Source: Octopus vulgaris
Lineage: Eukaryota
Assembly (NCBI GenBank): GCA_951406725.2
Contig: OX597821.1
Location: 21,142,001 to 21,206,000 of the forward strand
DNA length: 64,000 nt
Direction of reading: 5' to 3'
Numbering within the stretch: position 1 is the first letter of the stretch; each line of letters opens with the position of its first letter. The notes under the pieces were generated by a model that saw only the letters and a list, made by a program, of their open reading frames with translations, was not told the origin of the DNA and did not search any database. The translations under genes were made by a program, and so were the position numbers. Positions 1,826 through 64,000 of this stretch are shown one piece after another.

Positions 1826-2339
1826 TCTATCTCTCTATCTATCTATCTATCTATCTATCTATCTATCTATCTATCTATCTATCTATCTATCTATCTATCT
1901 ATATCTTTTCCCCTTTTTCTTCTTTTTTCATTTCTCTTTTCTTTTGTTCCTTTCCCTTTCTTTTTTTTTCTTTTATTCTTTTTATTTTTTATTCTATTTT
2001 TTTAATTTTTTTTAGTTCTTTTGTTCTTTTCTTCCCTTTTACGATCCCTCTTGATCGAAAACCTACGCCACCCCCTTTTTTTCATCCCCCAAAAGAAAAG
2101 CTCTACCTTGTGACTTGTCCCATCTGTGTGCAGCCCTGTGTGGCCAATAAAGAAACTTATCTATATATCTATCTATCTATCTATCTATCTATCTATCTAT
2201 CTATCTATCTATCTATCTATCTATCTATCTATCTATCTATCTATCTATCTATCTATCTATCTATCTATCTATCTATCTGTCTGTCTGTCTGTCTATCTAT
2301 CTATCTATCTATCTATCTATCTATCTATCTATCTATCTA
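1826..2339. repeat. (CTAT)n tracts 1826-1900 and 2158-2339 flanking the Tx1 pieces
   Basis: Direct reading. Confidence 0.95.
1904..2158 (+). mobile_element. 5'-truncated 3'-UTR-only copy of the Tx1-type element inside (CTAT)n
   Basis: Pyrimidine tract, hairpin acgatccctcttgatcg (2041-2057), end tgtggccAATAAAgaaac, then (CTAT)n. The end resembles the Tx1 relic terminus at 36122-36143, and the sequence is shared with inverted piece 8054-8148. Confidence 0.7.
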
Positions 2340-2536
2340 CTGACGTGCTGTCACTTCGACTCCGAAGGTAATCGTTTATTTTGACTATTTATAGCCCATA
2401 TTTTGTGTACATTTTTGTAAATAAGTTGTGTAAGGCACCCAACTTTCGTTTGAGTGCTTTTCCAAGGGAGGAATTCGCCCCTAGGGGCAGTTTCAACCCC
2501 ATTTCATTTCTGTAATTTTCTTCTCGACATTAGAAA

Positions 2537-4420
2537 ATGTCGAGAAATTTTATTGTAGAACGCTGGTCGCGTTTCTTTATGGACCAGCATTTTCCTAGTT
2601 TGGAACCGCTAGGAGAAGAAAAAAAGAACTCATGCACGCAAAGTGCAAACATGAATATTGGTGGAATGAACGCTGCAACCACGTGCGGTAACAGCCCTGT
2701 CACCACCACCACCACCACCACTAACAACAGCAACCACGAGACTACTACTGCTACCGCCACCACCACCTCCACCACCACCTCCACCACCACCACCACCACG
2801 ACCAACATAAATGATAAAAATAAAACTCACACGAAAACTATTGACAAAAACAACAGCAACAACAAGAACAACAATAAAAATCTAATAGTGAAGATGTTAA
2901 TATAACAGAATTAACAGCACCAACAAATTTCGCTGACACTCTGCGTTAGAAGAAACAGATTATACATTTCACGAACGAAGAACTTTTAGAAACAAGATCT
3001 CTCTTTACAACCAGAGGGCAAGATTTAGTGCTACATACACCTCAACACATAAAGCAAGAAATAGAAAATAAGACAATTATTTATAAAATTATGAGAAAAA
3101 GCAAAAAACTAAATGAACAGATTACAAAAACGGATGTAGAAAAATGCTTAAAAAACAATGAAAAAAAAGAATACATAAACTGGGGTCCCCAGTTGAACAC
3201 AGTAGTGGTCGGCTTCCCTAACCAGGAAGAGGCAAAAGCTCACTCTACTGAGTCTTTGGAAAATGATGATATCATCATGGTCCCATACTACAAAAATCAG
3301 AGAGTGAGTCGAATCACTATTAAAAATGTACCCCTCGATATTCCTAACAAATGGATAACAGGGGCAATCTGTTATCATTTGAAAACTATCAATATTTTGG
3401 AAACCGCCGTGTACCTTAACGACAATTGGGGCGGAAAAACTATAGTGGTGCCCATACAGATTGAAGGGGCCTCTATCGAGAGCCTACCGGATAAGATCCA
3501 CTTGGAAAATGGGCAAAGCCTATATATTATAGCAGAAGGCAAAAAACCTAGATGCTACAACTGTGGTAGCACCGAACATTTAATTGCCAAGTGCGCTCTG
3601 GTACAGAAAAAACAAGAAAAAACAAATCAGAAAACAAATAAAAAACCCTTGTTGCCAACACCAACACCAACACACTCAATTATGGAACAATGCCAAGAAA
3701 AACAACAAACCAGCAAACAAACCCCAACAACATCACCAAGAAAAGAAACAGTACCAACACAATCACCGTTGACGTCACAGCCAATTCAACATGTTGAATC
3801 AACAAAAAAATAGACCAACACCCACACCGAGGACGACAATTAAAAAGACAGAAAACAGTGACGAGAAGACAAATTCTACCCCTAACACCACAACAACACA
3901 AACACCGCACAAAACATCAACAATTTATACAAGCATACATAGTAATGCAAATGCTTTGCCTCTACCCCATACTGATACGTCGGACGACGAAAGTTCGACG
4001 GTATGGCAAATAGCCACAGGGGGTAAGAAGAAAAGATCCAAAAAATCCACCAAACAAGGAAGTAAAGCAGGGAGATATCTAACTCCGGACAACATCCCCC
4101 TAGACAATCAAAAAAGCAATGAACCCGTAAAACCACACACACAACTAACTGCAATAGACACAGACAATAAAGAATTAATGGACTACATCACATCCAACAC
4201 GGTCATCTGGGAAGATGACTTTAAGACAAACAATCATCCGCACACCACACCACCAAAACACATCAGAATTTTACACATAACACAAGCACAACACCACATA
4301 CTGAAAACAATATTTCCGAATGCGGTAGGCGGGTTTCAACGATACCTGTCGAAAAAACTATACAAACACCTCATCAAAAACAATACAAAAGAAGAAGAAA
4401 AAATGAAACTTTTAAAATGA
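2537..4420 (+). pseudogene. Tx1 ORF1 (gag-like, zinc knuckle), disrupted
   Basis: ORF pieces 2537-2905, 3028-3813 and 3791-4420 join via a frameshift near 2875, an in-frame TAG at 2947-2949 and a frameshift in the A-run near 3805. Contains RITIKNVPLDIP and CYNCGSTEHLIAKC (CX2CX4HX4C). Confidence 0.8.
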
Positions 4421-4508
4421 GTAAGTGACCTCCCCTGTTGCCTCTTGTCTCTTCTAATGTAGTGTGTAAAACACAATTTTCGTAAATGTCAAGTATGCTT
4501 AAATTAGG

Positions 4509-63691: not shown

Positions 63692-63729
63692 CTGTGACTC
63701 ACAGTTTCACGTTCCTGTTCGTCGGACAG
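63692..63729 (-). ncRNA. Minimal type I hammerhead-like motif, CCGANGA core variant
   Basis: Minus strand ctgt-CCGACGA-acaggaacgt-GAAAC-tgtga-GTC-acag; stem I ctgt/acag. Confidence 0.55.
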
Positions 63730-63918
63730 GTGTGATTAATATAAATGAATATAACCAGCTAGGTGCGATATAATACCATAAAAGAAAGCTTTCATCGTCA
63801 CTAAATGTGAGTGGGGTGCCGAATCACCTACACCGCTAAAAATAAGAGATAAAAAATTCTTCATGCTGTAAGAAGAGCGCAATATATATACACTGACAGA
63901 AGAAGTGACCGTCTCTAG

Positions 63919-63972
63919 AATCACCAGACTATACTAGTTTCACCTATTTCATAGGCATCATCAATAGTGATT
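63919..63972 (-). ncRNA. Minimal type I hammerhead-like motif, TTGATGA core variant
   Basis: Minus strand aatcacta-TTGATGA-t-gcctat-gaa-ataggt-GAAAC-ta-GTA-tagtctggtgatt; stem II cctat/atagg, palindromic ACTAGT stem III, stem I acta/tagt. Confidence 0.62.
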
Positions 63973-64000
63973 GCTATATATACACTCATCCACAAATACG

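What the first reader, a model, noticed from the sequence alone, without database searches (positions are those of the whole stretch)
1826..63980. Microsatellite niche partitioning: each retroelement class sits in its own repeat type
Seen: young Tx1 with (CTAT)n. Older Tx1 pieces with (CTT)n (33072, 36148, stub after 15730). R4/Dong-like relics and family D with (TAA)n on their sense strand (17866, 57655, 32434, 51143). Hammerhead-bearing Penelope-like pieces with (TA)n (42414-42598, 63520-63980). Known: Dong targets (TAA)n and Koshi (TTC)n. Inference: several site-preferring retroelements share out the microsatellite space and may seed or extend it, which could contribute to the extreme microsatellite load. 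The sample is small and background repeat density is high.
Basis: partly seen in the sequence, partly recalled or inferred. Interest (0 to 1): 0.7.

Follow-up and report, generated by a model that had tools for sequence, protein, structure and literature searches.

The report
Retroelements that share out microsatellites
In this animal genome several jumping-gene families each sit in one kind of short DNA repeat and, except in TA repeats (which read the same on both strands), face a fixed way, likely because their cutting enzymes choose that repeat; two unrelated groups share TAA repeats from opposite strands, a known habit seen here with targets I did not find in print.

Summary
The family-by-motif association is real genome-wide and holds at 5' junctions of truncated copies, so it is targeting and not just tails.
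- Young Tx1: (CTAT)n at 28/29 3' and 27/29 5' junctions, against 0.08% background. Genome-wide, 6,247 Tx1-type ends are followed by TATC and 71 by GATA.
- Dong/R4 relics, a young Dong family and the 556-bp family D sit in (AAT)n.
- The 210-bp hammerhead family sits in (TA)n.

One pairing fails. Old Tx1 is not a (CTT)n element: 0/27 relatives, and 364 ATT against 13 CTT ends genome-wide. It uses (ATT)n, the same tracts as Dong and family D but on the opposite strand. Family D lies opposite to Tx1 (4/4) and in line with Dong (11/11). So there are three motif niches plus strand sharing, not one repeat per class.

Seeding of the microsatellite load is weakly supported: only 4-17% of tracts in an unbiased 800 kb touch these families. 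Each pairing resembles Kibi/Koshi, Dong or TA-preferring Penelope-like elements. The scan already noted the CTAT/ATT Tx1 pair on other DNA of this genome (e1-9924749).

The parts
1826..1902 (+). (CTAT)n tract, 5' flank of a truncated Tx1 stub
1905..2157 (+). 5'-truncated 3' UTR of a sister CTAT-Tx1 family (84% to L379), with CTAT on both sides
2158..2339 (+). (TATC)45 tract between the stub and the young Tx1
2342..8053 (+). Young Tx1/L1-type LINE (Tx1A): ORF1 region 2950-4420; ORF2 4503-7928, 1141 aa, APE endonuclease + RT + zf-RVT; last ~170 bp of its normal 3' UTR missing
8054..8289 (-). Inverted 5'-truncated piece of a sister Tx1 3' UTR, preceded on its own strand by (CTAT)n (AGAT on +, 8149-8289)
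15524..15914 (+). (CTT)70, then a ~65-bp Tx1-type 3' stub (15740-15805), then ATC/(ATT)29
17281..18007 (+). Old Dong/R4-type 3' relic (R4a, RLE region, 32% aa to the young Dong) followed by (AAT)n from 17863
29966..32964 (-). Family D copy (32434-32913, plus a short duplicated piece to 32964) with a 2.5-kb (AAT)n at its 3' end
32963..33095 (.). Shared compound tract (ATT)30(GTT)7(CTT)6: 5' flank of family D on - and of a Tx1 piece on +
33096..36146 (+). Old Tx1 pieces (Tx1B): a 3' stub from 33096 and a decayed ORF2 + 3' UTR from ~33316, closest to the young ATT-targeting Tx1
36147..36286 (+). Compound (CTT)n then (ATT)n tract at the Tx1B 3' end
36533..36910 (-).
42384..42663 (+). ~210-bp hammerhead-bearing family (PLE1, 42415-42597; core decayed in this copy) between (TA)15 and (TA)33
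51079..51690 (+). (AAT)22 followed by a near full-length older family D copy
57575..59375 (-). Dong/R4 relic (R4b, 62-65% aa to the young Dong), split by an 869-bp insert at 58105-58973, with (AAT)n at its 3' end
63518..63980 (-). (TA)n plus two old short families (63590-63740, 63740-63975), each with a type I hammerhead-like motif on -

Best explanation
Three unrelated retroelement lineages in this genome sit inside pre-existing microsatellites, the LINEs and family D in a fixed orientation, likely because each endonuclease nicks one strand of one repeat type and reverse transcription starts there. Shown: one Tx1 lineage (APE endonuclease) has (CTAT)n on its sense strand at both ends; a sister Tx1 lineage about 70% identical in ORF2 has (ATT)n; Dong/R4 LINEs and the non-coding 556-bp family D have (AAT)n; a 210-bp hammerhead family has (TA)n. 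ATT-Tx1 and Dong/family D therefore use the same TAA/TTA tracts facing opposite ways. Inferred from target-primed reverse transcription: Tx1 primes on the A-rich strand (ATAG or AAT), Dong on the T-rich strand (ATT); family D is mobilised in trans by Dong; the hammerhead family by a GIY-YIG Penelope-like element. The window's CTT runs are likely mutated segments of ATT tracts. The elements mainly exploit an abundant safe-harbour sequence and account for a minority of tracts.
For: Top genome-wide relatives, window copy excluded: Tx1A 3' ATCT 28/29, 5' 27/29, opposite strand 0; family D 3' AAT 29/29, 5' 20/29; R4a 3' 12/29, 5' 8/26; R4b 3' 18/29, 5' 10/29; PLE1 3' AT 22/29, 5' 14/29. Truncated copies: young Dong 11/13 AAT at scattered 5' truncation points; Tx1 CTAT lineage 5/7 CTAT, 1 CTGT, 1 none; family D cut at nt ~42 preceded by AAT 35 times, by ATT 0 times genome-wide. 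Exact genome-wide counts after a Tx1-type end: TATC 6247, GATA 71, ATT 364, AAT 61, CTT 13. Young ATT-Tx1: ATT at 7/7 3' and 5/5 readable 5' junctions. Orientation of family D within 250 bp downstream: 4 opposite/0 same for Tx1B, 11 same/0 opposite for Dong/R4, Fisher p=7e-4. Controls in the unbiased sample: two MITE-like families have a repeat at 3 of 72 ends with no motif recurring; an RTE-type SINE has ATG at 43/63 3' but 0/9 5' ends, the pattern a tail gives. Family-by-motif table in unbiased DNA: chi2=67, 0 of 20,000 permutations reach it.
Against: Old families are noisier: Tx1B 3' ATT 7/27, ATC 6/27, none 10/27, and 5' ATT only 3/29; R4a and R4b 5' ends lack a called repeat in 17/26 and 18/29, partly because homology boundaries in old copies are imprecise. 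PLE1 5' ends in the unbiased sample show AT in only 4/12, and the 63590-63980 families in 6/29. No intact Tx1, R4a or R4b 3' ends fell in the unbiased sample by the strict end test. The link of PLE1 to a Penelope ORF is weak: no real match to a young 781-aa element, only same-strand neighbours in 4 of 8 loci with such ORF fragments. Family D shares no alignable sequence with the young Dong. No empty orthologous site was read and no enzyme was assayed. Survival bias (insertions elsewhere being purged) is not formally excluded.
Confidence: 0.85

Rival explanations
1. The repeats are the elements' own tails or heads, added at insertion, so the elements create the microsatellites rather than target them.
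For: 3' association is always stronger than 5'. Tracts beside Tx1A are longer than background (median 84 vs 48 bp) and than a split-tract model predicts (36 bp). A tail-only family does exist here (RTE-type SINE).
Against: The same strand-specific motif abuts arbitrary 5' truncation points and one 3'-truncated Tx1A (L017). Most tracts have no such element beside them.
Confidence: 0.08
2. One reading: four classes in four separate repeat types, including a Koshi-like old Tx1 in (CTT)n, together driving the microsatellite load.
For: Three window junctions of old Tx1 pieces touch CTT, although AAG/CTT is only 0.09% of the genome sample.
Against: 0/27 relatives end in CTT. 13 matches genome-wide against 364 for ATT; the four that looked like a subfamily are copies of one duplicated SINE locus whose tract turns to ATT. 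CTT runs often adjoin same-strand ATT (3/10 unbiased; 17/68 in all loci, 2/68 next to AAT). 0 of 9 AAG tracts abut these families.
Confidence: 0.04
3. Passive co-location: elements insert broadly and survive in repeat-rich, gene-poor regions.
For: The window is about 21% short tandem repeat and many CTAT-Tx1 hits cluster in a few regions.
Against: It cannot give an 88:1 strand bias, base-precise junctions, or MITE controls without repeats.
Confidence: 0.03

Closest known systems
Kibi (TC)n and Koshi (TTC)n, Tx1 clade, teleosts; crocodilian Tx1 families in (TTCC)n/(TTTC)n (PMC4494074, passages; PMC3812793, passages)
   Same: APE-type Tx1/L1-like LINE with the target microsatellite at both ends in one orientation; sister families on different motifs.
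   Different: Targets here are (CTAT)n and (ATT)n, not in the target lists I read; host is an invertebrate; no CTT family found. No tree with Kibi/Koshi was built.
Dong (R4 clade), (TAA)n-targeting; silkworm, mosquito, snail Biomphalaria (PMC3812793, passage); Dong-R4 reported in Octopus (PMC9115989, PMC13282606, passages)
   Same: Single ~1300-aa ORF with RT, a C-terminal Cys/His motif and PD..D/E nuclease-like motif, (AAT)n on the sense strand at both ends.
   Different: Accompanied by a 556-bp non-coding family with the same target and orientation, and shares tracts with an opposite-facing Tx1 lineage.
Penelope-like elements with (TA)n bias and pLTR hammerheads (Neptune, Naiad, Hydra; PMC8557442, passages); non-LTR retrozymes (recalled)
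   Same: Short repeats with minimal type I hammerheads flanked by (TA)n.
   Different: No ORF; the autonomous partner was not identified; the preference is looser than for the LINEs.
RTE elements and their SINEs with microsatellite tails (PMC9115989, passage)
   Same: A microsatellite at the 3' end.
   Different: Tail only; the example here has no repeat at its 5' ends, unlike the targeting families.

Membership tests
Tx1-clade target-specific LINE | ORF2 with N-terminal APE endonuclease, RT and C-terminal zinc motif, behind an ORF1 | tested here: met
   Pfam PF03372, PF00078, PF13966; best PDB hits are L1 endonucleases; upstream ORF region
Tx1-clade target-specific LINE | Target sequence at both junctions, including 5'-truncated copies | tested here: met
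Tx1-clade target-specific LINE | RT phylogeny inside Tx1 rather than another L1-group clade | not tested
Koshi | Insertion into (TTC)n | tested here: not met
Dong (R4 clade) | Single ORF with RT and C-terminal restriction-like endonuclease, no APE | tested here: met
   1303-aa ORF with RVT_1 only in Pfam; C-terminal CxxC..H....C and RPD..E..V motifs read by eye against recalled RLE motifs; window relics align to this C-terminus
Dong (R4 clade) | Insertion into (TAA)n | tested here: met
   18/19 3' and 11/13 truncated 5' junctions
Dong (R4 clade) | RT phylogeny within R4 clade | not tested
   no reference set fetched
Dong-dependent SINE (family D) | Discrete non-coding unit with fixed ends and 5' truncations | tested here: met
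   556 bp, recurring 5' boundary, variable truncation
Dong-dependent SINE (family D) | 3' tail homologous to the partner LINE; RNA-gene-derived head | tested here: inconclusive
   No blastn match to the young Dong body; only a loose terminal hairpin resemblance; no Rfam hit; other Dong families not compared
Penelope-like element | Hammerhead in the terminal repeat | tested here: met
   descriptor met in 13/30 PLE1 copies and 6/29 relatives of 63590-63980; window copies decayed; Rfam finds none
Penelope-like element | RT + GIY-YIG ORF linked to the repeat | tested here: inconclusive

The most novel reading that the evidence does not exclude
An APE-type Tx1 lineage and an RLE-type Dong lineage with its own SINE divide the same TAA/TTA tracts by strand, while a sister Tx1 switched to CTAT with about 30% ORF2 change; each insertion splits a tract into two that regrow, so the elements breed their own targets and add measurably to the genome's TAA and GATA load.
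Probability: 0.3. Interest if true: 0.62.

Novelty: new member of a known kind. Interest (0 to 1): 0.42.

Why it matters
It gives a natural pair of young, intact, ~70% identical Tx1 proteins with different microsatellite targets, and two unrelated nucleases using opposite strands of one repeat, so target choice and switching become testable. Practically (inference), short-read insertion callers should miss elements buried in microsatellites, which could explain why an octopus Dong showed few non-reference insertions in PMC9115989, and TAA, GATA or TA markers in such genomes will often share flanks.

Tried and rejected
- Rfam on the whole window and on four short stretches gave no hammerhead or RNA-gene hit; the matches were repeat-driven miRNA noise. 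The repeat finder was swamped by microsatellites.
- Minimum-energy folds of four window motifs did not give full hammerhead folds. The motif at 63450 fails the descriptor and is not counted.
- A CTT-specific Tx1 subfamily was looked for and rejected.
- The empty-site test was inconclusive: assembled contigs of four other runs laid on a young Dong insertion (L363) broke at the tracts and none bridged the site.
- The young 781-aa Penelope-like ORF is not the evident partner of PLE1.
- A simple inversion does not explain the window Tx1's rearranged 3' end, because the left tract has the wrong orientation.
- A 'TpA step is enough' rule fails: 0/102 ACAT and 0/23 ACT tracts are occupied.
- Literature searches for Dong-dependent SINEs and for niche partitioning with microsatellite targets returned 0 papers with all terms; searches listed no paper on these targets in cephalopods. 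The library lacks most subscription journals, Repbase and Kojima and Fujiwara 2004, and no supplements were read; the repeat library behind PMC13282606 may already contain these families.

Full report
Setting. The window is G000:C8:21142001-21206000 of a 2.8-Gb animal genome. About 21% of the window is short tandem repeat. In 80 evenly spread 10-kb stretches perfect repeats cover 7.7%: AT 2.88%, AAT 0.70%, AGAT 0.45%, AAG 0.09%.

Method. The window's copy was dropped, leaving 29 each. A junction counts for a motif if a perfect run (5 di-, 4 tri- or 3 tetranucleotide units) starts within 12 bases, read on the element's sense strand. Background from 40,000 random positions in the 800 kb: ATCT 0.08%, AAT 0.10%, ATT 0.11%, AT 1.26%.

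Young Tx1. ORF2 (4503-7928) has APE, RT and zinc domains. Relatives end in (CTAT)n at 28/29 3' and 27/29 5' junctions and never in the opposite strand. Of 20 copies fetched whole, 18 start in CTAT, one in CTGT and one in CT; of 7 readable 5'-truncated copies of this lineage, 5 abut CTAT, 1 CTGT and 1 none. One copy cut short at its 3' end still abuts CTAT. Genome-wide, a Tx1-type end motif (also carried by a SINE) is followed by TATC 6,247 times and by GATA 71 times. Three sister families (78-80% ORF2 identity) also sit in TATC at both ends. The window copy is atypical: a stub of a sister family precedes it and an inverted piece of that family replaces its 3' end.

Old Tx1 and CTT. This pairing fails. 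Of 27 relatives with a findable end (2 dropped), 7 end in ATT, 6 in ATC, 0 in CTT and 10 in no called repeat. Genome-wide the end motif is followed by ATT 364 times, AAT 61 times and CTT 13 times, the last with a wider gap allowed. Four CTT rows that looked like a subfamily are copies of one locus, a SINE whose tract changes from TTC to ATT. A young intact family (1145 aa, about 70% to the CTAT family, often in 5.87-kb tandem arrays) has ATT at 7/7 3' and 5/5 readable 5' junctions; two fetched 5' stretches were uninformative. The window's old RT piece scores best against it (288 against 238-244 bits). In the window, both long CTT runs beside the old element are parts of ATT compound tracts.

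Dong/R4 and family D. The relics at 17281-17760 and 57800-59375 align to the C-terminus of a young 1303-aa RT protein. Their relatives show AAT at 12/29 and 18/29 3' ends and at 8/26 (3 ran off the locus) and 10/29 5' boundaries, and ATT at none. The young family shows AAT at 18/19 3' ends and 11/13 scattered 5' truncation points; full-length copies and one with an internal deletion were not in that count. Family D is a 556-bp non-coding unit with AAT at 29/29 3' and 20/29 5' ends, and 6,388 exact end-plus-AAT matches. Copies cut at about nt 42 follow AAT 35 times and ATT never. It has no alignable homology to the young Dong and no Rfam hit, so Dong-driven mobilisation is inferred from the shared target and orientation only.

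Strand sharing. Family D within 250 bp downstream lies opposite to old Tx1 in 4 of 4 cases among 29 loci, and in line with Dong/R4 in 11 of 11 among 78 loci (p=7e-4). The window shows it directly: the tract at 32963-33095 is the 5' flank of family D on the minus strand and of Tx1 on the plus strand.

Hammerhead families. The 42415-42597 family (about 210 bp) has AT at 22/29 3' and 14/29 5' ends, and at 13/15 and 4/12 in the unbiased sample. A minimal type I hammerhead descriptor of my own is met in 13/30 copies, but not the window's. 63590-63980 is two older families with hammerheads in 6/29 relatives and AT at one flank in 6/29. Membership of Penelope-like elements is plausible but not shown.

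Controls. Two MITE-like families show a repeat at 3 of 72 ends with no motif recurring; an RTE-type SINE shows ATG at 43/63 3' but 0/9 5' ends. Two abundant SINEs show weak 5' preferences (ATT 8/70; AT 16/74). In unbiased DNA the Tx1 / Dong+D / PLE1 by AGAT / AAT / AT / other table gives chi2=67, reached by 0 of 20,000 permutations.

Seeding. Only 4/45 AGAT, 14/84 AAT and 21/467 AT tracts touch these families, and 0 of the AG (58), ACC (67), ACAT (102), ACT (23) and AAG (9) tracts do. Older relics would be missed, so these are lower bounds. Tracts beside Tx1A are longer (median 84 bp) than background (48) or a length-biased split model (36); family D flanks are not (27 vs 30) and Dong flanks are borderline (42 vs 30, p=0.05). 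Preference for long tracts or regional clustering could give the Tx1 result too. The empty-site test failed because contigs break at tracts.

Mechanism. Shown: motif, strand and both-end association. Inferred from established target-primed reverse transcription: the primer is the strand complementary to the element's sense flank, so Tx1 nicks the A-rich strand and Dong the T-rich strand of TAA tracts. Whether the enzyme or RNA-target pairing sets the choice is untested.

Comparison. Microsatellite targeting is known for Kibi, Koshi, crocodilian Tx1, Dong, Waldo and Mino (PMC4494074 and PMC3812793, passages read) and TA bias for several Penelope-like clades (PMC8557442, passages). Octopus repeat papers list Dong-R4, L1-Tx1 and Penelope families; PMC13282606 (part 1 of 3 plus passages) has no occurrence of 'target', and PMC9115989 (passages) none of 'target site'. 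My searches found no report of CTAT or ATT Tx1 targets or of strand sharing, within a library that lacks Repbase and most subscription papers. The scan had already noted the CTAT/ATT Tx1 pair (e1-9924749); I reached the ATT reading before opening it and confirmed it afterwards.

Verdict. A real, well-supported set of new members of known microsatellite-targeting kinds, with one wrong pairing removed and a strand-sharing twist added. Interest 0.42.

Noticed in passing
window 54044-54912 and 58105-58973: An 869-bp, 98% identical inverted duplicate containing SINE pieces; the second copy splits the Dong relic, so it is a recent duplication or composite mobile unit.
   Followed up: partly
window 29966-32433: A 2.5-kb (TTA)n tract with internal higher-order structure, sitting at the 3' end of a family D copy.
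   Followed up: no
L316:714-946; window 53546-53769: A very abundant SINE whose 3' end resembles the Tx1 3' end and which has a weak 5' preference for ATT (8/70); likely Tx1-mobilised. Most opposite-strand matches look like this SINE.
   Followed up: partly
G000:C4:93.80-93.83 Mb, C47, C50: Head-to-tail arrays of the intact ATT-Tx1 at about 5.87-kb spacing, with a short ATT spacer at the one junction read.
   Followed up: partly
L321-L340: 18 of 20 young CTAT-Tx1 copies picked by their 3' end are full length, and many have other Tx1 copies stacked in the same tract.
   Followed up: partly
L373-L375: A young Penelope-like family with an intact 781-aa RT + GIY-YIG ORF and a tandemly repeated 3' region rich in ATTGG and TGACGTC motifs.
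   Followed up: no
L390-L393: The same SINE-plus-tract locus occurs on C28, C30 and twice on C31, pointing to segmental duplication among small chromosomes.
   Followed up: no
window 9371-9757 family: An abundant SINE with an internal TA/CA tract and a weak 5' preference for (TA)n, 16/74.
   Followed up: partly
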